From a virus, in IMG/VR virus record IMGVR_UViG_3300043419_000459, positions 1-64,000 of that record: a stretch of 64,000 bases of DNA; one strand, given 5' to 3'. Below the pieces are notes generated by a model that made no database searches, had not been told where the DNA came from, and worked only from the letters and a program-made list of their open reading frames with translations. A program made the position numbers and the translations under genes. Below, one piece after another: positions 18,897 to 36,007 of this stretch. Numbering within the stretch: position 1 is the first letter of the stretch; the number at the start of each line of letters is the position of its first letter.

Positions 18897-21770
18897 TTAT
18901 AAACCTTTTTGTTTCTTTAATTCTTCTACTTGTGCAGTTAAATTATCGATTTGGATTTGTTGCTCTTTAATACCTTCAATTAATAATGCTACTAATTTTT
19001 CGTATTTAACCGCCTTATATCCATTATCTCTTGTAGTTACGATTTGAGGTAATACTTCTTCAATTTCTTGTGCGATTACACCCACATCGTTTCCTTCATA
19101 TCCGTGTACATCTTTTAATTCTGCTTTCCAATCATAAGTGTTACCACTAATCTTTTTGATTTTTTCAATTGGATTTTCGATTGGAGTGATGTTCTCTTTA
19201 AAGTTTCTATCTGAAGAAGAGTATGCCACAACATCATTTGCTGCGTCAATTCTACCAGATGTTCCACTTGCTGCCATGCCAACACCAATCGAAGCAAATC
19301 TAACATCACTAGATGTAGCTACTGCCTGGCCGATTGAGATTGTTACTGCTCCGGTTGCTCCACTTACTGTTACACCCGTACCTGCAACGTTTGATGTTAC
19401 ACCGGCGTTACTTAAAGTTACTGAACTTCCCAAAGCAACTGCTCCACCACCACTCAGACCAGTTCCTGCAGTTACAGTTACTGATGAGTTAGTTAATTTA
19501 GCATTTGCAATTGAACCAGCTAACATATCATTTGTAACACCACCAGATGCGATAGAAAGTGTTCTAGTTGCACTTATATCACCACCACCTGTTAAACCAC
19601 TACCTGCTGAAATTGATACTGCGGTGTGGTCGATATGTCTGTTTGCAGAATATCCAGTTGTTGAATCGTGTGCTATTTGTGATGAACCAGAAACTACTGA
19701 ATCACCACCTGTATTTAGGTATCTAGCATCGAATGTTGTAGTTAATTGTGAAGAACCACTAATTACACCATCTGCATCCAACTTACTCTTAATAGTTGTG
19801 TTGATTGAAGATGTGAATGATTCCAAATTAGCCGTTTCAACTTCTAATGCCGATAATCTTGTTAATGCTGAACCACTAAATGTATTTAAATTACTTACCG
19901 AAATGTTTACACTTGCAGAAGTTGATTCTAAATTATTTAATCTACCAACACTTGCAGTATAGAATGATGCAAATGCATTATCGTTTGTAGTATCTACCGA
20001 ATTAATTAAGGTTACGATTTCTGCAAATGTATCCTTATCTGCGTCTGCTGCTAATAAGATTGCGTCTACTCTACCTTTTTCGGTTGTAATTCTACTATCT
20101 ACTGATGTTGAATAATCTGAGAATCCGGTTGTTGAACTCAATGTTATTTGAGATGAACCACTTACTACTGAGTCTCCTCCTACATTTAAATATCTATCAT
20201 CAAGTGAGCTTGTTAATTGAGAAGAACCAGAAATTACACCATTTGTTGCTGCAATTGCTCCAGTAATAGAAGTTGCGATTATTCTACCATTAACCGCCAA
20301 TGAACCGGTTACAGATGTTATTGCTAAAGATGATGTACCAAATGAACTATTACCATTTGCGATTATACCACTATCTAAACTCAATCCATTACCAACATTA
20401 GTTAATGTACCTACTACCGTTCCTGCTGCTCCAACGAATTTAATTGAACCGGTTGAAATAAATAAATCTCTCCAAAATTTAGTCGAACTACCCAAATCAA
20501 ATGCATTAGATACTGATGGTAAAATCGAACCACTCATTGTTAATGACCCAGATATTTGTATACCACCTGCCTCTGCTAAAAATAAATCACTTCTATTAGT
20601 ATCACTTGTACCATTACCTATTACAAATAAAGATGTTGTATTATCAACAACGTTAAATTTACCTACTACCGATTGACCAACTGCCGATGCCTTTGTTCCG
20701 ATGCCAGATGCATGTGAATAATGTGCTTCAGCCCAAGAACCACTACCTTCGGCGTGTGAACCTGTTCCTTGTGCAATTGTTCTACTACCTTCAGCATGAG
20801 CGTGTTGACCAGTTGCCATAGAATACCAACCTTCAGAGTGGGCACCTCTTGCATTTGTCATTGTAAATTCACCTTCAGCGTGTCCATATTCATCATAAAC
20901 ATCAGTGTGGTTACCTTCAGCGTGTCCGCCACGTGCATTTGCATATACTACCGTAGATTGTCCTTCAACGTGTCCTGCTATAGCTTCAACGTATGTAGCA
21001 TATCCTTCGGCGTGTGCATATTCTGCAGTTGCTGTTGCTCTAGTAAATCCACCTTCAGTGTGAGATGAAGAACCCGATGCACTCGTACTATCTCCTTCTG
21101 CGTGTGAATATTCTCCATGTGCATGCGTATTATGTCCTTCGGCATGAGATGCAACTCCAGTTGCTCTAGCACGAAGTCCTTCGGCATGAGATATTTGACC
21201 GGTTGCTACCAAATCTTCACCACCATTTCTTAATGAACCAGTGATTCTTAATGAACCAGTTACAGATGTTATTGCTAAAGATGATGTTCCAAATGAACTA
21301 TTACCATTTGCAATCAATCCTGAATCCAATACCATCCCATTAGCTGCATTAGATAATGTACCTACTACCGTTCCTGCTGCTCCAACAAATTTAATTGAAC
21401 CAGTTGAGATGTAAAGGTCTCTCCAGAAATAATCTTCAGAACCTAAATCAAATGCATTTGTTACTGAAGGTATAAGTGATGAACTTAAAGATGCAACTAC
21501 ATTAACAGTGTCGGATGTATTATCACCGATTGTTAATTTTCCACCTAAAGTTAAATTACCCGCAATATTTGCATTTCCTGTGATGTCTAAACCGGAACCT
21601 GAAATTGCTCCAAAGTTTCCTGTGCTTCCTGTTCCAGAAGCTCCTAATACGATGTCGCCGTTGGGGCCGCCGACTACTAATGTTCCCAATGTGGTGTTCA
21701 CATATGGTTCTCCGAATGCTAACGAACCTGATTGTTGTGCGGTTGTCCCACGTCTAAATTTAAGTCCCAT
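18897..21770 (-). CDS. tail fibre with YadA-like HAEG repeats and a C-terminal peptidase S74 intramolecular chaperone
   Basis: N-terminal KFRRG..GEP..NT, 14-aa (S/A/G)HAEG repeats, and SSDRNFKENI...GVIAQE...YEKLVALLIEGIKE. Confidence 0.85.
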   Translation of the reverse strand: MGLKFRRGTTAQQSGSLAFGEPYVNTTLGTLVVGGPNGDIVLGASGTGSTGNFGAISGSGLDITGNANIAGNLTLGGKLTIGDNTSDTVNVVASLSSSLIPSVTNAFDLGSEDYFWRDLYISTGSIKFVGAAGTVVGTLSNAANGMVLDSGLIANGNSSFGTSSLAITSVTGSLRITGSLRNGGEDLVATGQISHAEGLRARATGVASHAEGHNTHAHGEYSHAEGDSTSASGSSSHTEGGFTRATATAEYAHAEGYATYVEAIAGHVEGQSTVVYANARGGHAEGNHTDVYDEYGHAEGEFTMTNARGAHSEGWYSMATGQHAHAEGSRTIAQGTGSHAEGSGSWAEAHYSHASGIGTKASAVGQSVVGKFNVVDNTTSLFVIGNGTSDTNRSDLFLAEAGGIQISGSLTMSGSILPSVSNAFDLGSSTKFWRDLFISTGSIKFVGAAGTVVGTLTNVGNGLSLDSGIIANGNSSFGTSSLAITSVTGSLAVNGRIIATSITGAIAATNGVISGSSQLTSSLDDRYLNVGGDSVVSGSSQITLSSTTGFSDYSTSVDSRITTEKGRVDAILLAADADKDTFAEIVTLINSVDTTNDNAFASFYTASVGRLNNLESTSASVNISVSNLNTFSGSALTRLSALEVETANLESFTSSINTTIKSKLDADGVISGSSQLTTTFDARYLNTGGDSVVSGSSQIAHDSTTGYSANRHIDHTAVSISAGSGLTGGGDISATRTLSIASGGVTNDMLAGSIANAKLTNSSVTVTAGTGLSGGGAVALGSSVTLSNAGVTSNVAGTGVTVSGATGAVTISIGQAVATSSDVRFASIGVGMAASGTSGRIDAANDVVAYSSSDRNFKENITPIENPIEKIKKISGNTYDWKAELKDVHGYEGNDVGVIAQEIEEVLPQIVTTRDNGYKAVKYEKLVALLIEGIKEQQIQIDNLTAQVEELKKQKGL
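20300..21470 (-). repeat. direct repeat of about 220 bp (approx. 20300-20520 and 21250-21470) flanking the HAEG-repeat domain
   Basis: NAFDLGS..FWRDL.ISTGSIKFVGAAGTVVGTL...IANGNSSFGTSSLAITSVTGSL occurs twice, with near-identical DNA stretches. Confidence 0.85.
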
Positions 21771-22336: not shown

Positions 22337-23467
22337 TTATAAAAACTTTTCCAATTCTTTTATTACCATTTCTGATGTGATACGTTTGCTACATTCAAAT
22401 TCACGCTCAGTTCCTTTGTGTTCCGGACACCAATTCCAATCATTAATATCCAATTTATATCTATTAAAACATCCTTGACATACTTCATTGGGTGCAGTTA
22501 TTCTAATACAATCTTTCATTTCTGCCCATTCATATGAAAATCCACTAATTAATATGGTGGGGATATTTAAACTCCAACTTAACCAACTCAACCCGCTACC
22601 GATTCCAATAAATGCTTTGGATTTTAACATTTCATCCATAACTAATTCAATAGGGCCATTTGGGTGTTTTACTATACCATCTGGAAGTTTATTACCCATA
22701 TAGTTATCACCCTCTTTTGATAATAATTTTACATTATACCCTCTACCATTCAACCAATCTACTACATCTTGCCAGCCATTAGGGTTATTCCAAAATTTAG
22801 ATTGAGCGGTACCATGAATACCAATACATACTTGTTTTTTATAAGATGTGTATATATTTGGACGTATTTCTATATATTCTAATCCTAAAATATCAGAACA
22901 CATTTTTTGAAGTGTAACCTTTTTTGGGTCAGTTGGATTTTTAAATAAATTAATAGAGCTATTATCATTGTAAAATACACCTATACAATACATTGCATAT
23001 AAATCGGACACAATATCACCTGGTTTTATAAATTCTATATTAGCATAACCATCTAAAAATAATTCATTCATAAAAGTTGATACAATTAATTTACAATTAT
23101 GCTTTTTTCTAAATTCTTCTAAATACGGAAACCAAGCCAAAGTGTCACCCAATGATTTAGAATCCAATGCAATATAGACTTTTTTATTTTCCGCATTATA
23201 TGAATGTTCAAACCAAACGTTTTCATTTTCATATATTTTGATTTTCCAATTAATAAAATACTCTTTATTACATTTACACCAACAATTATTTTTAATATTT
23301 GTTGTATAAACAATATTGTCAGTATCGGTATCTATGAATTCAACTCTATATTGAGCTTCTTTGTTTCCTTTAATTTCTACAAAAGGGCCATTGACAAAGT
23401 GATAATAAACTTTGTTTTCTATATTTATTTTGTTATTTTTGTTTTTTATTAAATTATCATATATCAT
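22337..23467 (-). CDS. autotransporter O-heptosyltransferase-like (TibC/Aah, BAHT family) protein glycosyltransferase
   Basis: SLGDTLAWFPY, KFWNNPNGW, FIGIGSGLSWLSW, ISGFS and Cys cluster CQGCFN..WNWCPEH...FECSK. Confidence 0.8.
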   Translation of the reverse strand: MIYDNLIKNKNNKINIENKVYYHFVNGPFVEIKGNKEAQYRVEFIDTDTDNIVYTTNIKNNCWCKCNKEYFINWKIKIYENENVWFEHSYNAENKKVYIALDSKSLGDTLAWFPYLEEFRKKHNCKLIVSTFMNELFLDGYANIEFIKPGDIVSDLYAMYCIGVFYNDNSSINLFKNPTDPKKVTLQKMCSDILGLEYIEIRPNIYTSYKKQVCIGIHGTAQSKFWNNPNGWQDVVDWLNGRGYNVKLLSKEGDNYMGNKLPDGIVKHPNGPIELVMDEMLKSKAFIGIGSGLSWLSWSLNIPTILISGFSYEWAEMKDCIRITAPNEVCQGCFNRYKLDINDWNWCPEHKGTEREFECSKRITSEMVIKELEKFL

Positions 23468-24413
23468 TTAATTCAGGATTAAGTTTTTCTATTATAATTT
23501 GTTTAGTTGATTTTAAATCATCATCAATATAAGTTACCAAATCATTATCATCATATGTATTTAAATAAGTGTGTAGTTTCCTGAATATAGATGGTAATTT
23601 ATAACTCAATGCTTCTTTAATTGATAATGGATTTAATTCTAATTTAGAACTAAAATAAAACATATCACATGCTACGTAGAAAGTATCCACATCATCACGT
23701 TCTCCCCATATCACACAATTTTCAGGCTTATCATTCATTAATGGTTTCCAATAATCTTCAAAATTTATAGCTTGGTTACCAACAAAGTGGAATTTAATTT
23801 TATACTTTTCAAATTGTCTTGCTATTGCAAATACTTCACTTTGATTTTTACCCGGTGTAAACAATCCTACATTTAGTACATGCTTCCAAATTGGGTCTAA
23901 TTCTAATTCAACTTGTGCAACTTCCTTATCAAATGTATATTCTTCGATTGGATATTCCCATAACATAGTTTCAACACCAGTACCAATGAATTGTTGCCTA
24001 CTCCATTCAGATACCAAAACATATCTATCGGGTTGATAAATTATTTCATGTGGATTTGTAAATGAACTATGTGTAGTTACTACTATAAAGTAATTTCTAT
24101 TTTTTGTAAAAATTTGGTCTAAAATAAAAGGAGCTAAATGAAATTCTGGTATTTCCTGAAAATGTATGATGTCAGGGTTAGCTTGATTTATTACACTTAG
24201 TATTTCCGATTTATCATCTCCCAATGTATAAACCTTTACTATTGATTTTATTCTATTTTTTTGAACTACATATGTATCCCCACCACTATTATTTATTTCA
24301 ACAACTTCTATTTCAAAATCATTGATAAAGTGTTTTATTTGTTTGTATGTATATTGAGGTTGTCCACCAGTAGAAAGATGTGGACACACATAAAGTAACT
24401 TTTTTTTTCTCAT
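23457..24413 (-). CDS. GT4-like glycosyltransferase
   Basis: PHLSTGGQPQ, NVGLFTPGKNQ and ELNPLSIKEALSY (E-x7-E). Confidence 0.8.
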   Translation of the reverse strand: MRKKKLLYVCPHLSTGGQPQYTYKQIKHFINDFEIEVVEINNSGGDTYVVQKNRIKSIVKVYTLGDDKSEILSVINQANPDIIHFQEIPEFHLAPFILDQIFTKNRNYFIVVTTHSSFTNPHEIIYQPDRYVLVSEWSRQQFIGTGVETMLWEYPIEEYTFDKEVAQVELELDPIWKHVLNVGLFTPGKNQSEVFAIARQFEKYKIKFHFVGNQAINFEDYWKPLMNDKPENCVIWGERDDVDTFYVACDMFYFSSKLELNPLSIKEALSYKLPSIFRKLHTYLNTYDDNDLVTYIDDDLKSTKQIIIEKLNPELNDI

Positions 24414-24420
24414 ATTGTAA

Positions 24421-24452
24421 CAAACATACTAAATATATCTTACTTTTCCAAA
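24421..24452 (-). promoter_or_regulatory. consensus Bacteroidota promoter TTTG-N20-TATGTTTG
   Basis: Exact -33/-7 consensus 7 nt upstream of the GT4/BAHT gene pair. Confidence 0.7.
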
Positions 24453-27370
24453 TTTTCTACTCTATTTAATAATTCTTTTATAGATTCAATTAAAAGTGGA
24501 ACTATTTTTTCATATCTAACAGTCAAATAATTTTCACCTGATTTTGAATTATTATTTTCATCTCTATCAAATGGTGCAAATGCAACTGCTTCAGGTAATA
24601 CTTCTTCAATTTCTTGCGCAATTACTCCGACTTGTTTAGAATAATCGTTATATCCAAATTCCTCTGCTAATTCGTTTTGAGTATAGAATACACCATTTAT
24701 TTTTTGTAATTTAGATAATGCATCTGATATCTTTTCTATATCCTTTTTTAATCTCCTATCTGAATAGTATGCTGTGATGTTTCCGGTAGCTACGATTTCA
24801 CCAGCATTAGTAGTTGCTGCTGTTCCAACACCCAATGAATTTACTTGTGCATTTGAATTGGTGGTAAATCCACCATTTACTCCACTGGTTCCGCTGACAC
24901 CACTTGTTCCATTGCTACCTGGTGCACCATTAACACCACTTGTTCCATTGCTACCTGGTGCACCATTAACACCACTTGTTCCATTACTACCTGGTGCACC
25001 ATTAACACCACTTGTGCCACTTGTACCATTTCCACCATTAACGCCACTTGTTCCATTTCCTCCGTTAACTCCGGATGTGCCACTTGTTCCATTTCCTCCG
25101 TTAACTCCACTCGTACCATTAACACCACTTGTACCGCTTGTACCATTTCCACCATTAACTCCTGATGTTCCATTCGTACCCGGTGAACCATTAACTCCCG
25201 ATGTGCCACTAACTCCACTTGTACCTGGTGCACCATTAATTCCTGATGTACCATTTACACCGCTTGTGCCACTAACTCCACTAGTGCCGTTTAATCCGTT
25301 TATTCCACTTGTACCACTAACACCACTTGTGCCATTAACTCCATCAACTCCACTTGTACCATTTACTCCCGATGTGCCACTTGTACCATTAACTCCTGAT
25401 GTGCCACTCGTGCCACTAACTCCACTTGTACCATTTACACCGCTTGTTCCATTTACTCCGCTTGTACCGTTTACACCGCTTGTGCCATTTACACCGCTGG
25501 TGCCACTTGTACCACTAACTCCACTTGTACCATCCACACCACTTGTGCCACTAACTCCACTTGTACCATGTGTGCCACTTCCTCCACTTGTGCCACTCGT
25601 GCCACTAACTCCACTTGTACCATTTACACCATTATGACCACTTGTACCACTAACGCCGGATGTGCCACTTGTACCCGATTGACCAGTTAAATCTAAATTA
25701 CTTCTTGTTTTTACATTACCACTTGCATCTGCTACTAATATATTTGTTTCAGTCGTACCTTCTGAAATAATTACCGATAAACTACCTGATAATTGAAGTG
25801 AACCTGTGAACGAATGTGTGTCGTTTCCAAAATCACCATGTCTAGTTGAACCGCTAGTAAATAATATACTTGATGTTTGGTTAACGGTTGTCAAATTTGT
25901 AACAGTTAAATTTGTAATAGTTGTATTATTCAATTGTGCCGAAGAACTTATAATTCCGGCCGGTATTGAAGAAATGTCTGTATATACAATTTGTGATGAA
26001 CCTGATACTAATGTATGGGTTGCCGAAGCTACTTCCTCTTTACCTTCAAACGTAGTTAATAAACTATCATTGTAATCTGCAAATCCTGGTATTTCAAAAA
26101 CCGAACCAGCTGCGGTTGTTACATTTATTTGCCAGTTTGATATATTCTCTGTTGGGCCTGCACCTTCTTCAATTGATGTTACATTAACTTCAATATAACC
26201 GGTGGTATCATCATACGATATAACAATAGCTCTCATAAATCGTGTACCATCGTCTTCAACACCTATAATTGCTAATTGACCAGGTGTCCATTGTAATCCG
26301 GTTTCTATTTCAAATGTTTTAAGACCCACTGATATATCATTTATTGTAGTTGATGTAGTTGCAAATCTATCACTAACTCCATCTATACCACTAGTGCCAC
26401 TTGTACCACTCGTGCCATCTATTGCACTCGTACCACTTGTGCCACTCGTACCACTCGTTCCATCGACACCACTTGTGCCACTCGTGCCACTAACTCCACT
26501 TGTACCATTTACACCACTTGTTCCGTTTACTCCCGATGTGCCATTTACACCACTCGTTCCGTTTACTCCCGATGTACCACTTGTTCCACTTTCTCCACTA
26601 GTGCCACTTTCTCCACTCGTGCCACTAACTCCACTTGTACCATCGACACCACTTGTGCCACTTGTACCATCGACACCGCTTGTGCCACTTGTACCATCTA
26701 CTCCACTCGTTCCATTTACTCCACTTGTGCCATCAATACCACTCGTGCCACTTGTACCACTCGTGCCATCTATTGCAGACGTGCCACTCGTTCCACTAGT
26801 GCCACTTTCTCCACTCGTTCCACTAGTGCCACTTTCTCCACTAGTGCCACTTGTACCATCTATTGCGGATGTACCACTCGTTCCACTAACTCCCGATGTG
26901 CCATTAACTCCCGATGTGCCACTTGTTCCACTAACTCCACTTGTACCACTTTCTCCTTGTGGGCCTGCAACTGTGTTATATCCTAATTGTTTTGTTGTAG
27001 TATTATAAGTTACAACTGTTGTATTTGAATCGGTTGGTAATGTTGCTATTTTAACATCACCTTTTATGTCAACACTTCCGGTAAATTGATGTATATCGTC
27101 ATCCGTATCTCCAAACTTTGTAGAACCAGAAGTAAATGCCGCAGATGCCGTTACATATGTTACATGAAATTCGTTTGCAGTTATTATACCGGTTACATTT
27201 ACCGAACCATTTATTGTTTGATTTCCCGTAAATGTGTTAGAACCGGTTGTGGCCATACTGATTTCAGCTGCACCATTACCTACAACTAATGTGTTTTTGT
27301 CTGTATTGAATTCCAACTGACCTTGTGTAGTTACCGGTGTTTGTGTACTATTTAATATTAATGTTGCCAT
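24440..27370 (-). CDS. collagen-like (Gly-X-Y, GTS-rich) tail fibre with a C-terminal peptidase S74 chaperone
   Basis: Two long GTS/GVN/GVS triplet blocks, then [10 protein letters not shown]...GVIAQE...[15 protein letters not shown]. Confidence 0.85.
24880..25680 (-). repeat. 9/18-bp coding tandem repeat (Gly-Thr-Ser-Gly-Val-Asn), block 2
   Basis: Repeated ccacttgt(a/g/t) units on the + strand. Confidence 0.9.
26385..26955 (-). repeat. 9/18-bp coding tandem repeat (GTS-GVD/GES), block 1
   Basis: Repeated ccact(t/c/a)gt units. Confidence 0.9.
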
Positions 27371-27401
27371 TTACTTATATTATATTTCTTATAAATATCA
27401 A

Positions 27402-28232
27402 TTATATTCCAAAATCTAAATCTACTATTTCTGCAACTGCACATGCTACAAATAATTCTGCAAATGAACGTGGTGGGATGTTATTTCCATCCACATCATT
27501 TAATTGTGCAGTTGATAAATCTACTACCATTCCAGTCAATCCGGAACCATCACCAACGAAACTTATTGCCGTAACACTTCCACTTACATTAACTGAACCT
27601 GTAAATGTGTGAGTATCATCGGATGAATTACCGAAATTAGAACTACCACTTTCAAAAAGGACAGATGATGAAATTACAGAAATATTAAATTGTCTTGCAT
27701 TAACTGCTCCCAAAACTGTTAAGTCCGATGTTACACCCAAAGAACCACTTATTACACTAATACCATGATTAACGGTAAGTGTATCGTTTACTTGTAATGA
27801 ACCAAATGAACCAGTTAAAGTTGCTCTTAAAGAACCACTAATAGTTTGATTTCCTACAAATGTATTTGAACCCGTAGTTGCTGCATCCGTTGGGTTTACT
27901 GCCGCAAGTATTCTACTATCAAAACTTGCACTATCCGTAAAATATGATTGAGTAAATGAATTTAGTGGATTTAATATCGATATTATTTGTGAAGAACCAC
28001 TAACTACACCATTGGTTGCTGCAATAGAACCACTAAACGAATCCGCTATAATAGAACCTGTAATTACTGCATTTGTTGTTACAATAGTTTGAATCGATTC
28101 AACCGAACCTGATTTTTTAAAGTAAATTTTACCATCGTAGGTATTTACCGCTAATTCTCCTAAGTCTAATGAACCCGTACCAGGTACCTTTCCTGATAAC
28201 GCAGAACGTTTCAGTTGAACAATTGATGCCAT
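27402..28232 (-). CDS. fibre segment protein (N-terminal LKRS..GELAVNT domain)
   Basis: Mtd-N-like start; shared [16 protein letters not shown] and FG..DDTHTFTGS modules; ends DLDFGI. Confidence 0.7.
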   Translation of the reverse strand: MASIVQLKRSALSGKVPGTGSLDLGELAVNTYDGKIYFKKSGSVESIQTIVTTNAVITGSIIADSFSGSIAATNGVVSGSSQIISILNPLNSFTQSYFTDSASFDSRILAAVNPTDAATTGSNTFVGNQTISGSLRATLTGSFGSLQVNDTLTVNHGISVISGSLGVTSDLTVLGAVNARQFNISVISSSVLFESGSSNFGNSSDDTHTFTGSVNVSGSVTAISFVGDGSGLTGMVVDLSTAQLNDVDGNNIPPRSFAELFVACAVAEIVDLDFGI

Positions 28233-28264
28233 GTGGCCTTTTATTTAAGTTATTTAACAACAAA

Positions 28265-28280
28265 TGTAGTATATACTACA
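28265..28280. promoter_or_regulatory. perfect 16-bp palindrome TGTAGTATATACTACA
   Basis: Lies between the promoter-like motif (28283-28291) and the start at 28232. Confidence 0.4.
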
Positions 28281-28296
28281 AACATAAATATATTAT

Positions 28297-28330
28297 AAAA
28301 AGAAAAACCCCTACTATGAGGGGTTTCTAT
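28297..28330 (-). terminator. rho-independent terminator
   Basis: Minus strand reads AAACCCCT-CATAGT-AGGGGTTT-TTCTTTT. Confidence 0.75.
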
Positions 28331-28348
28331 TATAATTTTTTATGAATA

Positions 28349-28909
28349 TTAAAATTCTCCTGAATCTGGGCCAAATGATGCTGAAAGTTCTAATTGATAT
28401 AATCTACCATGAACCGAACCACTAAATGCTAATACATCACCAATTCCGTATAATGAACCACTAAATCCTTGTGCAGTTGTAATAGTTGCAATAGTTACAT
28501 CATTATATCTGAAATCTATTTGGTTTTCAGTTGTTGCAACTTTGTATAGAGAACCACTACCTTGAATGTATCCTATTGTTCCTGCAAATGGTTCCGAATT
28601 AAAATCGAAATCATCCGGTCTCATCGATGCAGTTACCCCTGTAATTCCTGCACCATCACCTACTAAGTAAGATGCCGATACTATCGATGCACTAACTGCT
28701 CCAGTAAGACTAATTGAACCCGTTACTTTCGCCCCAGCTACTACGAATTCTACTACCTCATCGGTTGAACCAGACTTGTGTAAGAACGCTTTACCATCAT
28801 AGGTATTTAACGCTATTTCACCTACCTGCAGCGATGCCGTTGTAGGAACCGAACCGGCTACACCTGAACGTTTCAGTAAAATCGATGATGTTGGATTATT
28901 TGTTGCCAT
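28349..28909 (-). CDS. short fibre segment protein (N-terminal LKRS..GEIALNT domain)
   Basis: Start is paralogous to 27402..28232; ends DSGEF. Confidence 0.7.
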   Translation of the reverse strand: MATNNPTSSILLKRSGVAGSVPTTASLQVGEIALNTYDGKAFLHKSGSTDEVVEFVVAGAKVTGSISLTGAVSASIVSASYLVGDGAGITGVTASMRPDDFDFNSEPFAGTIGYIQGSGSLYKVATTENQIDFRYNDVTIATITTAQGFSGSLYGIGDVLAFSGSVHGRLYQLELSASFGPDSGEF

Positions 28910-28936
28910 ATATTTCTATTTATTCTTTATTTATTA

Positions 28937-31900
28937 TTAATATGTTCCTCCGTCTATTATTGATATTCTTGTCTCAATTGATGAACTAAATGTAGTAAAT
29001 CCAGTAGTTGCAGTTATATCAATTTGTGATGAACCACTTACAACCGTTTCAACATCTAACTTAGTTTTGATTGTAGTATCAATTGAAGAAGTGAATGAAT
29101 TTAAACTTCCAGTTGATATTTCCAATAATCCCAATCTACTATCTTGTACCGCTTGTGATGCTGAGAATGATACATTTATTGAAGAACTTAATGATGTTAA
29201 ACTTGCCGCACTTGCACTAAATGAAGTTGCTACCGATGAACTGAAATCTCCAGTTACACTTGCAACACTTGCAGATAATTGAGTTATACTTGCATTACTT
29301 GCACTAAATTCTAATAAAATATTATCATTGTAATCACTATATCCAGCTAAATCTACAATATTGATTTGTGATGCTCCACTTACAACATTTTCAGCGTCTA
29401 ATTTAGTTTTAATAGTAGTGTTAATCGAAGAAGTAAATGAATTTAAACTTCCAGATGTAATTTCTAATAAATCTAATCTACCATTTTGTGTAGTTTGAGA
29501 AGTTGCGAATGAAGAACTCAATAATAATTGAGATGCTGCACTTGCACTAAACGATGTTGCCACCGAAGAACTAAAATCTCCTGTTACACTTGCTACACTT
29601 GCAGATAATTGATTTAAATTATATGCCGATTGTGAGAATGAAGTTGCTACCGATGAACTAAATTGACCAGTTACACTTGATACACTTGCAGATAATGCGT
29701 CTACACTTGCTACACTTGCACTAAAATTAGTTGCGATTGAAGAACTGAATGATGTGTATCCGGTTGTATCAGAAATTGTAATCTGAGACGAACCACTTAC
29801 TACACCATCACCACCTGCTAAAAGAACTTTACTTTCAGCTCCAGCTGCTCCCGCCTTCCAGTAATCATTTGTTGAATCCCAAAGTAAAGAGCCACTTACC
29901 GTATTAGGTGCAGTTGGGTCTTTAACTAATAATCCACCATTTGCTGCTCCTGTACCATTTAATTCAATAATGTTATCACCTAATTGAATTGTATTAGATT
30001 CTACCGATGTAGTTGTACCTTTAACAACTAAGTCGCCAATTACCACTACATTAGAACCAGTAAATTCAAATGCTGTTTTTAATGAAGCCGAATAAGTATT
30101 TAATGCTGCTACCGAAGTATTTAAACTTGCAGTTGTACCATTTATGTTAAATATTGAAGTATTTAAACTTGCACTTGTACTATTCAAATTACTTACTGAA
30201 GTATTTAAACTTGCAGTTGCTGAGTTAATATTGAATATTGAAACATCTACACTTGCAGATTTTAATTCTAAATTATCCAATCTAACATCTGCAGATTCTG
30301 TAAATGAGTTGATATTGAATAATGAAGTATTTACACTTGCAGAAGTTGATTCTAAATTACTTAACTTAACATTTGCGGATTGTGTAAATACATTTATATT
30401 AGATACCGATGTATTAACACTTGCAGAAGTTGATTCTAAATTACTTAATCTAACATTTGCAGATTGTGTAAATGTATTTTGATTTGCGTCTGCGATTGCT
30501 GCTGCACTTGCTGATGCTATCAAACTTCCACTTACGATTGCTATTTCACTAAATCTTTCGTTTGCAGATGCAGTAAATGCGTTTAATGCGTTTGTAGAAG
30601 TATTAGAAGATGTATAAGAATTTAATGCTGCAATTGATACATTTACACTTGCAGATGTAGATTCTAAATTTGTAAATCTAGTTAAAGATGAACCACTAAA
30701 TGTATTTAAGTTACTTATTGAAACATCTTGTGCGTCGTTTGTAGTCTTAGCAGTTGATGCTGAAACGATTAATGAACCACTTACAACTCCAATTTCTGTT
30801 AATCTAGTTAAAACTGACGAACTGAATGAATTTATATTAGAAACTGAAATATTAACACTTGCAGAAGTAGATTCTAAGTTTGTTAATCTAACATCTTGTG
30901 TGTCGTTTGTTGTTTTTGCAGTCGATGCTGATGCTATCAATGAACCACTTACAACTCCAATTTCAGTTAATCTTGTTTCAACTGAACCGGTATAAGTTGC
31001 TAATGTAGAATCTTTTGTTAATTGTGAACCACTAAATGTATTTAAGTTAGAAATACTTACATCTTGTGAATCATTTGTTGTTTTTGCAGCTGATGCTGAA
31101 GAAATCAACGAACCACTTACTACACCAATCTCTGTAAATCTTTCGTTTGCAGATGCGGTGAATGCGTTTAATGCAGTTGTAGATGTGTTTGAAGAAGTAT
31201 ATGAGTTTAAAGCTGCAATTGATGCGTTTACACTTGCAGAAGTTGTATTTAAATTACTTACCGATGTGTTTAAACTTGCACTTGTTGCTTCTAAACTTGA
31301 TAATCTTTGAGCTTGAGAACCACTATCAGTTGATAATGCGTTTAATCTTGCGTCAACCGATGTACTGAATGCTGTTACATTTCCAATTCCTACGATAGAA
31401 CCACTAATTACACCACTACCATTAACATAGATTGAAGAACCATTTGTTAAGTTTAATGATGAACTATTAGTTAAGTTCATATTAGAATCATTAACTGCTA
31501 CTGCCCCACCAAAGTTGGTAGAACCACTTACATTAACTGAACCACTTATGGTTTGAGTACCATAAAATACATTCGAACCGGTAGTTGCGTATGAACCACT
31601 CTTTGAGTTTAAGTTATCTAATGATAATTGTTGTGACGCAGATGAACTATTTAATGCTGCGATTGATACATTTACACTTGCAGATGTAGATTCTAAGTTA
31701 GATAATCTAGTTAAAGAAGAACCACTAAATGTGTTTAATGCATCAATACTAACTTGTTGAGATGCAGATGAACTATTTAGCGCTGCTACTGAAGTATTTA
31801 AACTTGCAGTTGTACTATTTAAATTACTTAACGAAGTGTTTACACTTGCACTAAATGTATTTAAGTTTGTTATTGAAACGTCTTGTGAATCATTTGTTGT

Positions 31901-33811
31901 TTTAGCAGCTGATGCTGAACTAATCAATGAACCACTTACTACACCTATTTGAGTCAATCTTGTTTCAACACTTCCAGTATAAGTTGCTAAATCTGAATTT
32001 TGAGTTAATTGAGATGCTGTAAATGAGTTTAAGTTTGTTATAGAAACTCCTACACCACTACCAACATTTGCAACCACTGCTGCAATCGATGCTGAAATTG
32101 AACCACTAAAATCACCATATCCAGTTGTATCTGAGATTGTGATTTGAGATGAACCACTTACTACACCATTTGTTGCTGCAATCGAACCTATGAATGATGT
32201 TGCGGTTACTGAACCAGTTACGATTATACCACCAGCTACTGAAATTTTACTATTATCAGTCGCTTGTGTTATGATTGAATCACCAATATGGTCTTCACCT
32301 GTTGCAACCATAATCTTTCCAGGAGTCAAAGTCAATTCCTCACCCAATGAACCAGTGTTTTTAGGGCCGGCTATTAATATTGCTGAGTTATACCCTTCTC
32401 CACTACCAGATGGATGTTGATACAACCAGTGATTATTTAATGAATCCCAGAATAATGAACCACTTGCTCCTGCTCCTGAACCACTATCTGCAACCGAAAT
32501 GCCACCAAATCTAACTGCAGGTGTTGCTGTATTTAATACAATTGTATTTTGTCCGATATCTAAAGCAGATGCAGTTACATTAAATAAAGATGATGAACCA
32601 TATACTACTAAGTCTTGTGTAATATACATTGAACCTGTAATTACCTGAGTGCCGTAGAATATGTTTGAACCACTTAATAATGCATAAGAACCACTATTTG
32701 CATTTAAATTTGCAATTGCTACCGATGCAGCTGATGCTGAACTTATTAAAGAACCCGTAATAGTTGCTAATGCAGTATTTTGAGTTAATTGTGAACCACT
32801 AAATGAGTTTAAGTTTGTTATTGAAACATCTTGTGAGTCATTTGTAGTTTTTGCAGCTGATGCCGAACTAATCAATGAACCTGTGATAGTTGCTAAATCG
32901 CTATTTTGGGTTAATTGAGAAGATGTAAATGAATTTATGTTTGTAACTGAAGTATTTAAACTTGCAGTCGTTGAGTTTAAGTTAGAAACTGATGTATTTA
33001 CGCTCGCACTAAATGATTCTAATGAAGAAATTCTTTGGCTTTGAGTTGTAAATGTTTGTGCAACGGAAGCACTGAAATCACCAGTTACTGATGCAACTGA
33101 TGCAGATAATGCTGTTACACTTGCTGCACTTGCACTAAATGAAGTTGCTACCGATGCAGATAACGAAGTCACTCTTGCATCACTTGCTGAGAATGAGGTT
33201 GCTACTGAAGAACTAAAATCACCAGTTACTGATGCAACCGATGCAGATAATGCAGTTAAATTTGCTGCACTTGCACTAAATGAAGTTGCCACTGAAGAAC
33301 TAAAATCACCCGTTACACTTGCAACAGATGCTGATAAAGCAACTACACTAGCATTACTTGCAGAAAATGAAGTTGCTACCGAAGAACTAAAATCACCAGT
33401 TACAGACGCAACTGATGCAGATAATGCTGTTATACTTGCATTACTTGCTGAGAAAGATGTTACAACTGATGAACTGAAGTTGGTAATGTTACCCGTTAAA
33501 TCAGGTATTTCATTTGCACCTTCTCCTAACAAATATAAGGTAGAACTACCACTTGCATAGTAAGGAACACCTTTTACTAATCCGTTATAGGTTCCTGCAG
33601 GAAATACATTTGGTGCATTATTACCAACTAAAAATCTATTTACTGCTTGTATCGAACCACTTTCTACGGCTGCAAACACCATACCCGAACCATTCGATGC
33701 GGTAATGTTTGAGGAACCTGATACGATTATTAATTCACCTTTTTGAAATGATGAGGTTGCTGCCGAAAGGGCTTCTAAACTACCACGTCTGTGTCTAATG
33801 ATTTGTGCCAT
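28937..33811 (-). CDS. giant Ser/Thr/Ala-rich coiled-coil fibre protein
   Basis: 1624 aa; RHRRG start; LSASVASVTGDFSSSVATSFSAS and NLESTSASVN repeats; ends IDGGTY. Confidence 0.75.
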   Translation of the reverse strand: MAQIIRHRRGSLEALSAATSSFQKGELIIVSGSSNITASNGSGMVFAAVESGSIQAVNRFLVGNNAPNVFPAGTYNGLVKGVPYYASGSSTLYLLGEGANEIPDLTGNITNFSSSVVTSFSASNASITALSASVASVTGDFSSSVATSFSASNASVVALSASVASVTGDFSSSVATSFSASAANLTALSASVASVTGDFSSSVATSFSASDARVTSLSASVATSFSASAASVTALSASVASVTGDFSASVAQTFTTQSQRISSLESFSASVNTSVSNLNSTTASLNTSVTNINSFTSSQLTQNSDLATITGSLISSASAAKTTNDSQDVSITNLNSFSGSQLTQNTALATITGSLISSASAASVAIANLNANSGSYALLSGSNIFYGTQVITGSMYITQDLVVYGSSSLFNVTASALDIGQNTIVLNTATPAVRFGGISVADSGSGAGASGSLFWDSLNNHWLYQHPSGSGEGYNSAILIAGPKNTGSLGEELTLTPGKIMVATGEDHIGDSIITQATDNSKISVAGGIIVTGSVTATSFIGSIAATNGVVSGSSQITISDTTGYGDFSGSISASIAAVVANVGSGVGVSITNLNSFTASQLTQNSDLATYTGSVETRLTQIGVVSGSLISSASAAKTTNDSQDVSITNLNTFSASVNTSLSNLNSTTASLNTSVAALNSSSASQQVSIDALNTFSGSSLTRLSNLESTSASVNVSIAALNSSSASQQLSLDNLNSKSGSYATTGSNVFYGTQTISGSVNVSGSTNFGGAVAVNDSNMNLTNSSSLNLTNGSSIYVNGSGVISGSIVGIGNVTAFSTSVDARLNALSTDSGSQAQRLSSLEATSASLNTSVSNLNTTSASVNASIAALNSYTSSNTSTTALNAFTASANERFTEIGVVSGSLISSASAAKTTNDSQDVSISNLNTFSGSQLTKDSTLATYTGSVETRLTEIGVVSGSLIASASTAKTTNDTQDVRLTNLESTSASVNISVSNINSFSSSVLTRLTEIGVVSGSLIVSASTAKTTNDAQDVSISNLNTFSGSSLTRFTNLESTSASVNVSIAALNSYTSSNTSTNALNAFTASANERFSEIAIVSGSLIASASAAAIADANQNTFTQSANVRLSNLESTSASVNTSVSNINVFTQSANVKLSNLESTSASVNTSLFNINSFTESADVRLDNLELKSASVDVSIFNINSATASLNTSVSNLNSTSASLNTSIFNINGTTASLNTSVAALNTYSASLKTAFEFTGSNVVVIGDLVVKGTTTSVESNTIQLGDNIIELNGTGAANGGLLVKDPTAPNTVSGSLLWDSTNDYWKAGAAGAESKVLLAGGDGVVSGSSQITISDTTGYTSFSSSIATNFSASVASVDALSASVSSVTGQFSSSVATSFSQSAYNLNQLSASVASVTGDFSSSVATSFSASAASQLLLSSSFATSQTTQNGRLDLLEITSGSLNSFTSSINTTIKTKLDAENVVSGASQINIVDLAGYSDYNDNILLEFSASNASITQLSASVASVTGDFSSSVATSFSASAASLTSLSSSINVSFSASQAVQDSRLGLLEISTGSLNSFTSSIDTTIKTKLDVETVVSGSSQIDITATTGFTTFSSSIETRISIIDGGTY

Positions 33812-33906
33812 ATTTTAATGTTATTCTCTTAATTAAGGTTATTCGGTAATAAATATGAGTTTTATTATGAAATCCCTGATTTTATTCTATTAATATTTTT
33901 TTATTT

Positions 33907-34758
33907 TTAAAACTCACCCATATCAATCATATTTGAGTTTGGTTGATTATTTGTCGACGGGTCTGGCGGTGGTGGAACCGATGCAGTTGTTGGATTTCCG
34001 TCTAAATACAATTGTGCCGGAACCGTAGTATCTACGTCTCCGTCAAGCCAATTACCATTTGGTAAACCGGTTGCATTTACTATTGCTACTGCTCCACTTA
34101 CAATTAATGAGTAAGAATCCGAATCCACCGGTGCAATTGTAATACCCTTCAATGTTGCTCCTGTTAATTGTGCAGAAGAACTAATTACACCAACTGCATT
34201 TATCTTATTCAATATTGTAGTATCAATTGAACTACTAAATCCTGTAAATCTTGCATCAATACCACTAATTGACGTATTGATTGAAGAACTTAAATTGTTT
34301 ATAGTTGTATTTGTTGAAGAACTAATTGAGTAAATAGTTGAATAAGAACTGCTAAATTGCGTTGCAACCGATGCGCTAAAGTCACCAGTAGTTGCTTGAA
34401 CCGATTGACTTAATTGTGATATTAAATATTGACTTGCACTATCTGTATTTGCAATTGAGGAACTTAATGTATTCAATGAAGCAGTTGTAACATATGTATT
34501 TGACAAAATTGAAATTGATTGTGAAATAGATGCACTTATTATTGATGCTTCCAAATCACTACTCATTGTGACATCCAATTGAACAACAAATCCGTCATAA
34601 TTAGATGCTTCAACCAAATCAACTTGTGCCGATGAAGAAAACAAACCGGCACCATCTATTATTTGATATACGGCACCACTAAAGTCAGAACCAACTTCGG
34701 CTGATGTTTGTAGCTGTGAACCACTTTCAATTTGTTTTAATCTAATTAAATTTGCCAT
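33907..34758 (-). CDS. Ser-rich fibre/connector protein
   Basis: IRLKQI start; shares the GDFSASVAT and GVISSSAQL modules; ends IDMGEF. Confidence 0.65.
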   Translation of the reverse strand: MANLIRLKQIESGSQLQTSAEVGSDFSGAVYQIIDGAGLFSSSAQVDLVEASNYDGFVVQLDVTMSSDLEASIISASISQSISILSNTYVTTASLNTLSSSIANTDSASQYLISQLSQSVQATTGDFSASVATQFSSSYSTIYSISSSTNTTINNLSSSINTSISGIDARFTGFSSSIDTTILNKINAVGVISSSAQLTGATLKGITIAPVDSDSYSLIVSGAVAIVNATGLPNGNWLDGDVDTTVPAQLYLDGNPTTASVPPPPDPSTNNQPNSNMIDMGEF

Positions 34759-34770
34759 TACTTATTGATA

Positions 34771-35241
34771 TTATGCACCAAATGTTAAAGAAATTGGGTC
34801 AGCATAAACATATGGTGCATTTGATTCTTTAGTTTGAGTTGCAACGGATAATTTTACTCTAAAAATCCAATATGTGCTAATAGGTAACATTTCAAATCCA
34901 CCAATTGAACCAACTGTATTAAAAATTGCAGTATCTCCATTTTGATTAAGTGTAAGTGTTCCACCTGCATCTACCAATTGTTGAAAATCGTTAAAATAAT
35001 CGGCACCTGTCGCATCTAGTGGGTTAAAATAAATGTAATCGGTTCCACTACTTGCATTTGGATTAAATGTTTCAATATTTGGTATACCTTCTACTATGAA
35101 TATTGTATTACCATTATTTTCAGGTGGGCCTGCATTTATATTACCTTCATCACTATAAAAGAACCATTCTCCTACTCCTGGTATATTATCATTTAGAGTA
35201 TTTTTAGTTATTGTGAATCCGTTTGAAAATTCTATTCCCAT
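34771..35241 (-). CDS. hypothetical virion protein (MGIEFxNGFxITKN leader)
   Basis: Shares its first 14 aa with the upstream gene. Confidence 0.6.
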   Translation of the reverse strand: MGIEFSNGFTITKNTLNDNIPGVGEWFFYSDEGNINAGPPENNGNTIFIVEGIPNIETFNPNASSGTDYIYFNPLDATGADYFNDFQQLVDAGGTLTLNQNGDTAIFNTVGSIGGFEMLPISTYWIFRVKLSVATQTKESNAPYVYADPISLTFGA

Positions 35242-35278
35242 ATTAATGCTTTTATTTAGTTATAAATATTCTTTATTA

Positions 35279-36007
35279 TTATAATCCGTATGTCGATTTT
35301 ATTTCGTTAAAATTTGTTGTTACTTCCGATGGTGACAATGCTTTATTATAAACTCTCATTTGATAAAATACAGGTTGGTTTGCAGAAATACTACTGTTTA
35401 ATTTATCTGTTGCACCCATTCCTACATTTGTGTGTCTTGCACCAAAAAGAAATTCAGACGTTGCATACCCACCAGTTGGGTCATTAGTAGTTGCTGTTGC
35501 AAATTGACTACCATTTAAATATAAAATTTTACTTGTACCATTTATTACAAATATCCAATGTCTTATTGCATTTGAAGCAGTTATAGTTACATTTGTGGTA
35601 TTTGATGTAGGTGAACCCCAAATCATTGAAGTAGATGTTCCCATATATGCAAAATATCCTTTACTAAAACTATATGCCTCATTACCCCAAATAGTTGCCC
35701 AATGTGATGTAGTATTGAATGATGCTACAATTTCAATGGTTGAAGTATTACTACCAATATTATATGGAACGCTAATATACGCATCTCCTCCAAATGATGA
35801 GTTTAATAATTTTATACCACCACCATTATTAGAAACATATGATGTACTTCCATATAAAGTTGCATTTCTACCATTACCACTCACATCTGTCCAAGTTGTT
35901 CCGGAAGATGGTGCGGTTTGTAAATAAAATTGCAATCCGGAAACTGGTGCTGGTGTTGAATTATTATTTTTCGTTATACTAAATCCGTTTGTGAATTCTA
36001 TTCCCAT
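35279..36007 (-). CDS. LamG/ConA-like lectin-domain virion protein
   Basis: WTDVSGNGRNATL...LYLNG...MRVYNKALS..EV..NF. Confidence 0.75.
   Translation of the reverse strand: MGIEFTNGFSITKNNNSTPAPVSGLQFYLQTAPSSGTTWTDVSGNGRNATLYGSTSYVSNNGGGIKLLNSSFGGDAYISVPYNIGSNTSTIEIVASFNTTSHWATIWGNEAYSFSKGYFAYMGTSTSMIWGSPTSNTTNVTITASNAIRHWIFVINGTSKILYLNGSQFATATTNDPTGGYATSEFLFGARHTNVGMGATDKLNSSISANQPVFYQMRVYNKALSPSEVTTNFNEIKSTYGL

What the first reader, a model, noticed from the sequence alone, without database searches (positions are those of the whole stretch)
24440..34758. Daisy-chain fibre: C-terminal D-x-G-x-F/Y tags paired with N-terminal LKR/RRG domains in consecutive genes
Seen, in gene order: 33907 ends IDMGEF; 28937 starts IIRHRRG..GEL and ends IDGGTY; 28349 starts LLKRSG..GEIALNT and ends DSGEF; 27402 starts VQLKRS..GELAVNT and ends DLDFGI; 24440 starts LILNS..GQLEFNT and ends in an S74 chaperone with no tag; 18897 (KFRRG..GEP..NT) also ends in S74. 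Inference: each tag docks into the next protein's N-terminal domain, building a long segmented or branched fibre capped by the S74 fibres, as a plug-and-socket assembly code.
Basis: inference. Interest (0 to 1): 0.75.

Follow-up and report, generated by a model that had tools for sequence, protein, structure and literature searches.

The report
End-to-end joints of phage fibre proteins
Five neighbouring genes of this T4-like phage encode pieces of one long fibre; each piece ends in a short Asp-x-Gly-x-aromatic tail and the next starts with a small cap domain, a pairing also found at the known gp36-gp37 joint of phage T4, so it is probably a widespread connector that has not been described, though binding itself was not shown here.

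Summary
In the 101-kb contig only three ORFs end in D-x-G-x-[FYW], and they are three consecutive fibre genes. Each is followed by a gene that starts with a KLKRS..GELAxNT cap, a remote relative of Pfam Mtd_N.

The pairing is not chance and not confined to this phage:
- In about 240 viral loci, nearly every gene with the tag is followed at once by a gene with the cap (dereplicated 22:1 against 24:557).
- Among fibre proteins, only those followed by another cap gene carry a tag.
- The conserved Asp and Gly use varied codons and the spacers vary, so selection acts on the protein.
- T4 gp36 ends in DFGYY and gp37 starts with the cap. BPP-1 Bbp9 and Mtd fit too, as do podo-, sipho- and actinophages.
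- A second tag, DLDF[GN]x, pairs only with true Mtd_N caps. The 276-aa adaptor may therefore carry either S74 fibre.

Caps also occur without tags (crAss001, streptococcal HylP). Binding was not shown: monomeric AlphaFold2 models of a read-through fusion gave only a weak hint.

I found no paper describing the motif. Earlier notes of this scan report the same rule on other genomes. My reading is a T4-type segmented fibre with an apparently undescribed joint motif.

The parts
33907..34758 (-). 283-aa first link (anchor). It has no cap domain. Its conserved N-terminus is MANLIRLKQIESGS and its C-terminal tag is IDMGEF (33910-33927).
   Evidence: Homologues of 91-397 aa keep both ends (ID[MQ]GEF) while the middle varies.
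28937..33811 (-). 1624-aa Ser-rich, coiled-coil-like shaft. N-terminal cap of the 'RHRRGSLE' class (about 33674-33811). C-terminal tag IDGGTY (28940-28957).
   Evidence: profile E 1e-15 at aa 1-46; this cap class is preceded by D-x-G-E-[FW] in 41 of 42 cases.
28349..28909 (-). 186-aa short link. KLKRS-class cap (28757-28891). C-terminal tag PDSGEF (28352-28369).
   Evidence: E 1.6e-19. PHROG tail-fibre N-termini. AlphaFold2 models the cap at pLDDT 86-89.
27402..28232 (-). 276-aa adaptor. KLKRS-class cap (28095-28232), a fibre repeat module, and the second tag type DLDFGI (27405-27422).
   Evidence: E 2.9e-23. In relatives the same N-terminal 180 aa are fused to a full distal fibre. DLDF[GN]x is conserved.
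24440..27370 (-). 976-aa distal fibre. Degenerate Mtd_N cap (about 27263-27370), collagen-like G-T-S repeats, and a Peptidase_S74 intramolecular chaperone (24584-24763). No tag.
   Evidence: PF01391 200 bits, PF13884 55 bits. (Mtd_N 18.6 bits, below the cut-off). MATLILN-type starts always follow DLDF tags.
18897..21770 (-). 957-aa second distal fibre. Mtd_N cap (21669-21761) and a Peptidase_S74 chaperone (19038-19214). No tag, and no tag-bearing gene directly upstream. Candidate alternative partner of the 276-aa adaptor.
   Evidence: Mtd_N 29.2 bits on the 60-aa fragment; in 6 related loci a DLDFNV/IDFN[IV] tag directly precedes an MALKFRRG gene.

Best explanation
These genes encode a T4-style segmented fibre that is assembled end to end in gene order: 283 aa, then 1624 aa, 186 aa and 276 aa, and finally a distal S74-chaperoned fibre.

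Inferred mechanism:
- Each joint is made by the extreme C-terminus of one trimer and the N-terminal cap of the next.
- The C-terminal tag is hydrophobic-Asp-x-Gly-x-aromatic/hydrophobic-COOH.
- The cap is about 45 residues, has four strands and is related to Mtd_N.
- The cap probably takes in the tag as an added strand or strands at the trimer axis or edge.
- The 276-aa adaptor carries a different tag (DLDFGI) that matches true Mtd_N caps. Both the collagen-like 976-aa fibre and the 957-aa fibre have such caps, so the adaptor may carry either of them as alternative tips.

Shown here: the motifs, their strict adjacency across many phage lineages, selection at the protein level, class-to-class pairing, and their presence at the T4 gp36-gp37 and BPP-1 Bbp9-Mtd junctions.

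Inferred, not shown: direct binding, stoichiometry, the strand-addition geometry, the point of attachment to the virion, and the sharing of the adaptor by two distal fibres.
For: 1. Window: only 3 of 273 ORFs carry the tag, they are consecutive, and each precedes a cap gene.
2. In 80 loci found with the 276-aa cap: tag and cap 113, tag alone 2, cap alone 56, neither 565. One of the two 'tag alone' cases is a cap that the profile missed.
3. After dereplicating junctions: 22/1/24/557, p = 2e-26.
4. When the upstream protein must itself be a cap-bearing fibre protein, the dereplicated counts are 13/5/0/41, p = 2e-9. Terminal fibres with S74 ends never carry tags.
5. Asp and Gly are invariant but use GAT/GAC and all four GGN codons, and intergenic gaps range from 7 to 169 nt.
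6. T4 gp36 ends in VQDFGYY and gp37 starts with MATLKQIQFKRS..GELAIN. About 35 T4-like loci keep D-F-G-x-[YF]. Trimeric gp36 binds the N-terminal region of gp37 (PMC3004832).
7. BPP-1 Bbp9 ends in ADLGGIA directly before mtd. Mtd sits at the ends of the fibres (PMC2408619).
8. Other cultured phages fit: Vibrio 1.208.B gp22/23-gp24-gp25, Ralstonia PY059YO380 gp26-27-28, Synechococcus S-CBS2 gp50-51-52 and Gordonia TZGordon gp28-29.
9. Classes of tag and cap go together.
10. Rare natural fusions have ..NKTIDGED or ..NKTISGN directly followed by an internal cap.
11. The cap is N-terminal in 454 of 458 profile hits and in all 150 best database hits.
Against: - No direct test of binding was possible.
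- The AlphaFold2 monomer of the in-frame read-through fusion failed (pLDDT 44).
- The shorter construct modelled the cap well, but the tag showed only pLDDT of about 63 and a single beta-bridge, and no contact map was available.
- Caps occur without upstream tags in crAss001 gp25/gp26, streptococcal phage hyaluronidase and cyanophage S-IOM18. About half of the dereplicated W-class caps also lack one. The cap therefore has other partners, or its partner is encoded elsewhere.
- The loci are related to one another, so the raw counts overstate independence.
- Two joints (186-aa and 276-aa caps) use the same cap class, so the motif alone does not explain the order of assembly.
- No gp35-like hinge and no virion attachment site were identified.
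Confidence: 0.7

Rival explanations
1. The tag and the cap are independent features of fibre proteins. The tag would be a C-terminal folding or trimerisation cap for subunits that lack an S74 chaperone, and the cap a general N-terminal trimerisation unit. They would sit next to each other only because fibre genes cluster.
For: The cap model resembles small trimerisation domains (collagen XV/XVIII, Z 4.3-4.5). Caps exist without tags.
Against: Among fibre proteins the tag is present only when the next gene has a cap (13/5/0/41). Short anchors without a cap also carry the tag, and only in front of cap genes. T4 gp36 physically binds the N-terminal region of gp37. Tag and cap classes go together.
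Confidence: 0.12
2. Every cap-bearing protein attaches on its own to the baseplate or neck. The C-terminal tags bind something else, such as a chaperone, a whisker or the capsid while fibres are stowed.
For: The 957-aa fibre has a cap but no upstream tag. The attachment site on the virion is unknown. The cluster lies between neck-type genes (head-tail adaptor PHROG hit) and the sheath gene.
Against: This does not explain why tags occur only directly upstream of cap genes, nor the T4 and BPP-1 precedents. Proteins of 159-186 aa with both a cap and a tag make sense as links, not as separate fibres.
Confidence: 0.1
3. The conserved gene boundary is a feature of the nucleic acid: a recombination linker for exchanging modules, or a signal for translational coupling. 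GGAGG does lie inside the Asp-Gly-Gly codons.
For: In the window the J2 tag is encoded by GAC GGA GGA. Fibre modules are clearly shuffled between relatives.
Against: Synonymous codons vary freely at the invariant residues. The distance to the next start codon ranges from 7 to 169 nt. The intergenic sequences are not conserved.
Confidence: 0.03

Closest known systems
Phage T4 long tail fibre, gp36-gp37 joint (genes 34-35-36-37; PMC3004832)
   Same: Consecutive genes encode consecutive fibre segments. gp36 (221 aa) ends in D-F-G-Y-Y. gp37 starts with the same KLKRS..GELAxN cap (my profile, E 1.7e-7). Trimeric gp36 is known to bind the N-terminal region of gp37. A short adaptor precedes a long receptor-binding distal fibre.
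   Different: T4 uses this joint once, whereas the window uses it three times plus a variant fourth joint. T4 has a monomeric hinge (gp35) and gp34, whose ends are of another kind. The T4 tip is folded by gp38/gp57, while the fibres here have intramolecular S74 chaperones. In the papers I could read, the sequence motif at the T4 joint is not described.
Bordetella phage BPP-1 Mtd and its N-terminal beta-prism (Pfam Mtd_N PF18454; PDB 1YU0/1YU1)
   Same: The 957-aa fibre matches Mtd_N above the cut-off. The KLKRS caps are remote homologues (hhalign 96%). The cap model superposes on Mtd residues 7-49 (rmsd 2.4 A over 40 residues, Z 2.2). The upstream fibre gene bbp9 ends in D-L-G-G-I-A. Mtd sits at the ends of the fibres.
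   Different: Mtd is a terminal receptor binder with a C-type lectin fold diversified by a retroelement. BPP-1 has a single joint, and two Mtd trimers per fibre have been reported. How Mtd is held has not been solved.
Branched tailspike assemblies (CBA120 TSP1-4, G7C gp63.1/gp66; PMC8825819)
   Same: Several receptor-binding proteins are hung on one another through dedicated N-terminal assembly domains, so one virion can carry alternative tips.
   Different: Those systems dock on internal T4-gp10-like domains, not on a free C-terminal peptide. There is no sequence relationship. The best structural match to TSP4-N was only Z 2.3.
Chain-like fibres of podophages A1002 / GP4 (PMC13730344) and the bead-chain neck fibre of Anabaena phage A-1(L) (PMC10966104)
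   Same: Fibres are built from several small proteins, and in A1002 by beta-sheet augmentation onto a docking segment.
   Different: A1002 has dimeric beads on a rope protein. The A-1(L) proteins gp80-82 carry neither the tag nor the cap. These are unrelated systems.

Membership tests
Pfam Mtd_N (PF18454) | HMM score at or above the gathering threshold (26.3 bits) at the N-terminus | tested here: met
   957-aa fibre: 29.2 bits on the 60-aa fragment, but 24.3 bits on the full protein. BPP-1 Mtd control: 64 bits.
   976 aa: 18.6 bits. The other three give no hit up to E = 10. Only 2 of 20 KLKRS caps hit weakly. Remote homology is nevertheless supported by profile-profile comparison (96%, E 3.9e-9, 40 columns).
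Pfam Mtd_N (PF18454) | Beta-prism fold as in Mtd residues 1-48 | tested here: inconclusive
   The cap is modelled at pLDDT 86-89 with four strands. It superposes on 1yu1 residues 7-49 at 2.4 A over 40 residues, but Z is only 2.2. Foldseek gave no significant match.
T4-type segmented long tail fibre | Consecutive genes for fibre segments, with a gp36-like C-terminus (D-x-G-x-aromatic) followed by a gp37-like N-terminus | tested here: met
T4-type segmented long tail fibre | Homologues of gp34 and of the monomeric hinge gp35 | not tested
   No targeted search was made. Pfam and PHROGs gave no such hits for the genes of the cluster.
T4-type segmented long tail fibre | Segments physically joined in the virion and attached to the baseplate | not testable with these tools
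   This needs electron microscopy or proteomics. The attachment site is unknown.
Peptidase_S74 intramolecular chaperone fibres (PF13884) | C-terminal S74 domain above the threshold (22 bits) | tested here: met
   976 aa: 55.1 bits (aa 870-929). 957 aa: 56.7 bits (aa 853-911).
Collagen triple-helix repeat (PF01391) | G-X-Y repeats above the threshold | tested here: met
   976-aa fibre: 200 bits in five stretches.

The most novel reading that the evidence does not exclude
A general peptide-and-cap connector joins separately encoded fibre trimers in a very large number of tailed phages. The peptide is hydrophobic-Asp-x-Gly-x-hydrophobic-COOH, with a DLDF variant; the cap belongs to an Mtd_N-superfamily domain. 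This cap class alone has about 16,000 representative clusters at 50% identity. The connector comes in a few mutually specific flavours, so fibre architecture and alternative tips can be read from gene order, and fibres could be re-plugged by design. T4 gp36-gp37 would be its long-known but uncharacterised example.
Probability: 0.55. Interest if true: 0.8.

Novelty: new variant of a known kind. Interest (0 to 1): 0.7.

Why it matters
Tail fibres set phage host range, and how multi-protein fibres are held together is poorly known even for T4. A short, recognisable tag-and-cap rule would have three uses:
- Annotators could reconstruct fibre chains and alternative tips from sequence alone.
- It would explain how phages swap fibre modules without losing assembly.
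- It would give a defined joint for structural work, and for exchanging receptor-binding modules in laboratory phages.

It also gives a direct experiment on a sixty-year-old model system: the last five residues of T4 gp36.

Tried and rejected
- **The search for related loci with a four-sequence cap alignment** failed because there was no conserved stretch.
- **AlphaFold2 of the natural in-frame read-through fusion** (last 60 aa of the 1624-aa protein, the intergenic codons with stops read as Gly, then the 186-aa protein) gave pLDDT 44 and is unusable.
- **A 120-aa version with a deeper alignment** modelled the cap well. The tag showed only pLDDT of about 63 and one beta-bridge. No coordinates or contact map were available, so docking could not be judged.
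- **Structure searches with that model:** Foldseek against the PDB gave no significant match, and all VIA scores were below 5.
- **A first MAFFT alignment** misplaced unpaired upstream tails onto the downstream protein's own tag and was rebuilt.
- **The A-1(L) neck fibre and the A1002 rope fibre** were checked as possible known equivalents and rejected.
- **A Shine-Dalgarno or recombination-site reading** of GGAGG in the tag codons was rejected on codon and spacer variability.
- **Literature searches** for the joint, for Bbp9 and for the motif strings found no description. The library does not hold most subscription-journal papers, so this is not proof of novelty.
Full report
**Context.** The window is the first 64 kb of a 101-kb contig with about 32% G+C. 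It belongs to a distant T4-like myovirus.
- The major capsid protein is 54% identical to those of Flavobacterium phage immuto and Microcystis phage Mel-JY01.
- The window encodes a T4 gp19-type tail tube, a tail sheath and a T4 baseplate protein.
- All genes of interest lie on the minus strand, between neck-type genes and the sheath gene. The 403-aa protein at 38402-39613 hits a head-tail adaptor PHROG.

**Observation.**
- In the direction of transcription the genes encode 283 aa (..IDMGEF), 1624 aa (MAQIIRHRRGSLE.. / ..IDGGTY), 186 aa (..ILLKRSGVAGSVP..GEIALNTYDGK / ..PDSGEF), 276 aa (MASIVQLKRS..GELAVNTYDGK / ..DLDFGI) and 976 aa ([15 protein letters not shown], collagen repeats, Peptidase_S74).
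- After two glycosyltransferase genes and a 139-aa gene comes a 957-aa protein (MGLKFRRG.., Mtd_N, Peptidase_S74).
- Only three of the contig's 273 ORFs end in D.G.[FYW], and they are the three consecutive genes.
- The N-terminal profile hits only the five named proteins.

- Among neighbouring genes on the same strand, a tag upstream and a cap downstream coincide 113 times. A tag without a cap occurs twice, and one of those is a cap the profile missed. A cap without a tag occurs 56 times, and neither feature 565 times.
- Many 'cap without tag' cases have close variants of the tag (D-x-G-x-Leu/Ile, DLDF..). Others follow the S74 end of a finished fibre, which means a new fibre is starting.
- Two further scans, with the 957-aa cap and with a classical RRG..W..NP.L..GE cap, gave the same picture.
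- The loci are related, so I clustered junctions by the last 40 residues of the upstream protein plus the first 50 of the downstream one. With 604 clusters the counts are 22/1/24/557 (p = 2e-26).
- To exclude simple clustering of fibre genes, I kept only upstream proteins that themselves carry a cap. After dereplication, 13 tagged proteins are followed by a cap gene and 5 are not. Of untagged proteins, none is followed by a cap gene and 41 are not (p = 2e-9). The tag therefore marks internal links, not fibre proteins in general.

**Protein or DNA?** At orthologous junctions Asp and Gly never change, yet they are encoded by GAT/GAC and by all four GGN codons. The spacer to the next start codon ranges from 7 to 169 nt. 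Selection therefore acts on the peptide. This rules out a recombination linker or a ribosome-binding site as the explanation.

**Known phages.**
- T4 gp36 ends in ..VQDFGYY and gp37 starts with MATLKQIQFKRSKIAG..AEGELAINL.
- In about 35 T4-like loci the gp36 homologue ends in [VIE]-x-D-F-G-x-[YF].
- The T4 review states that trimeric gp36 binds the N-terminal region of gp37 (PMC3004832). A 2026 T4 cryo-EM preprint resolves the fibre only to about 7-8 A and does not describe this joint.
- In BPP-1 the tail-fibre gene bbp9 ends in ..ADLGGIA directly before mtd. Mtd localises to the ends of the fibres (PMC2408619), and its beta-prism is presumed to hold it there (PMC10743442).
- Chains also occur in Vibrio podophage 1.208.B (gp22 ..NGGVY, gp23 ..DGGAF, gp24 cap/..DGGSF, gp25 cap), Ralstonia phage PY059YO380 (gp26 ..DGGNF, gp27 cap/..DGGTF, gp28 cap), Synechococcus siphophage S-CBS2 (gp50 ..SGGSF, gp51 cap/..DGGTF, gp52 cap) and Gordonia phage TZGordon (gp28 ..DGGEL, gp29 cap).
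- Counter-examples, with a cap but no upstream tag, are crAss001 gp25/gp26, a streptococcal prophage hyaluronidase and cyanophage S-IOM18.
- So a tag predicts a cap almost without exception, while a cap predicts a tag only in part.

**What the cap is.**
- Pfam Mtd_N recognises the 957-aa cap (29.2 bits) and weakly the 976-aa cap (18.6 bits).
- A profile-profile comparison of 20 KLKRS caps with 12 Mtd_N-type caps gives 96% probability (E 3.9e-9, 40 columns). The KLKRS caps are therefore a divergent branch of the same superfamily.
- This branch is very large. It has 15,989 representative clusters at E <= 0.001 and 5,423 at E <= 1e-10, and the domain lies at residues 1-7 in all 150 best hits.

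**A code?** Classes of tag and cap go together (all pairs).
- The RHRRGSLE cap is preceded by D-x-G-E-[FW] in 41 of 42 cases.
- D-G-G-x-[FYW] precedes only KLKRS caps, apart from starts that my class patterns left unassigned.
- D-[AG]-G-x-aliphatic precedes the RRG..W caps (44 cases) and KLKRS caps (25 cases).
- DLDF.. precedes only true Mtd_N-type starts: MAAIFQIRRG 30, MATLILN 8 and MGLKFRRG 6.
- The dereplicated numbers are small and the sequences are related, so this is a coarse code of three or four flavours, not a proven one-to-one lock.
- In the window, the four joints use D-x-G-E-F with the RHRRG cap, D-G-G-T-Y with a KLKRS cap, D-S-G-E-F with a KLKRS cap, and DLDFGI with an Mtd_N cap.
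- Six related loci have a DLDFNV/IDFN[IV] adaptor directly in front of an MALKFRRG fibre. The arrangement 'one DLDF adaptor followed by two S74 fibres' recurs in L035, L041 and L045. The 957-aa fibre is therefore best read as an alternative tip for the 276-aa adaptor. This is an inference.

**Fusions and splits.**
- In close relatives (L007, L014, L017) the first 180 residues of the 276-aa adaptor form the N-terminus of a complete 894-1016-aa distal fibre. The adaptor therefore behaves as a detachable proximal part of a distal fibre.
- Among the 150 best database hits, four proteins have a second, internal cap. In three of them (P0001-P0003) a tag-like ..YIDGNEP..NKTIDGED or ..NKTISGN precedes the internal cap, directly or within two residues.
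- This is what one expects if the tag and the first strand of the cap are neighbours in the assembled joint. It is suggestive only.

**Structure.**
- The 1624/186 junction happens to be in frame, with a 27-nt gap. I therefore folded the natural read-through, with stops read as Gly, as a single chain.
- The 256-aa construct failed (pLDDT 44).
- A 120-aa construct with 30 aligned sequences gave a confident cap (pLDDT 86-89, four strands). The tag block rose to about 63, against 49-59 around it, with one beta-bridge at the Thr of DGGTY.
- Without coordinates this is only a hint.
- The cap superposes on Mtd residues 7-49 (2.4 A over 40 residues, Z 2.2) and on collagen XV/XVIII trimerisation domains (Z 4.3-4.5). 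All these matches are weak.

**Novelty.**
- Segmented fibres and the existence of the gp36-gp37 joint are textbook knowledge, and Mtd_N is a known domain.
- I could not find any description of the conserved C-terminal peptide, its near-obligatory pairing with the cap of the next gene, the flavours, or the fact that T4 and BPP-1 share it. The library I searched is incomplete.
- Earlier notes of this scan report the same tag-and-cap rule on at least eight other genomes. I reached the T4 and BPP-1 links before reading those notes, and I do not count them as evidence.

**Verdict.** This is a T4-type segmented fibre whose joints use an apparently undescribed, widespread peptide-and-cap connector. 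Binding remains to be shown.

Noticed in passing
window 22337-24413 (-): Two glycosyltransferase genes sit between the two S74 fibre genes. One is a group-1 GT (318 aa, PF00534). The other is a 376-aa protein with the N-terminal domain of TibC (PF21129), the heptosyltransferase that glycosylates autotransporter adhesins. They lie just after the Ser/Thr-rich collagen-like fibre, so they may glycosylate it.
   Followed up: partly
window 16166-17884 (-): A 572-aa protein with a C-terminal LamG/ConA-like domain (PF13385). By eye, its central stretch looks like a Hint/intein module (C-LLFGTQIEL ... NGLISHN). The Hint reading was not tested.
   Followed up: no
window 34771-36007 (-); L035:7243-7716, L045:7419-7892: Two paralogous small proteins start with MGIEF(S/T)NGF(T/S)ITKN, and one has a LamG domain. 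In relatives a homologue (157 aa, MALIQFTDGFTI.. / MSIEFTGGFTI..) sits inside the chain, between the link that ends in ..DAGVWA and the next cap gene. Its role is unknown.
   Followed up: no
window 39666-40889 (-): A 407-aa protein shares the fibre repeat module ATTGSN.F.G.Q.I.GS ... FG..D.H.FTGS with the 276- and 976-aa proteins but has neither cap nor tag. It may be another fibre or a whisker.
   Followed up: no
window 28352-28420 and 28940-29010 (-); alignment A3: In both the 1624- and 186-aa families the tag is preceded by a conserved segment, FS(G/S)S(V/I)..R(L/I)..LE. MAFFT even aligned one family's tail onto the other's. The connector may therefore be longer than six residues.
   Followed up: partly
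proteins P0001-P0004: Metagenomic proteins with two cap domains. In P0001-P0003 the internal cap directly follows a tag-like ..NKTIDGED..NKTISGN or ..YIDGNEP. The tag resembles the common fibre repeat motif LTNKT(I/L).
   Followed up: partly
window 18897-21770 (-), aa about 190-350: The 957-aa fibre has a run of repeats of the form (S/Y)HAEG.....A.G. These were not analysed.
   Followed up: no
L007:319-2924, L014:83-3144: Relatives carry a second, shorter chain upstream. A 157-aa anchor (..IIDQGEF) is followed by a 562-714-aa cap protein without a tag. A 126-aa anchor (MAIILPGGF....NLDAGEF) then starts the main chain. The number of chains per phage therefore varies.
   Followed up: partly
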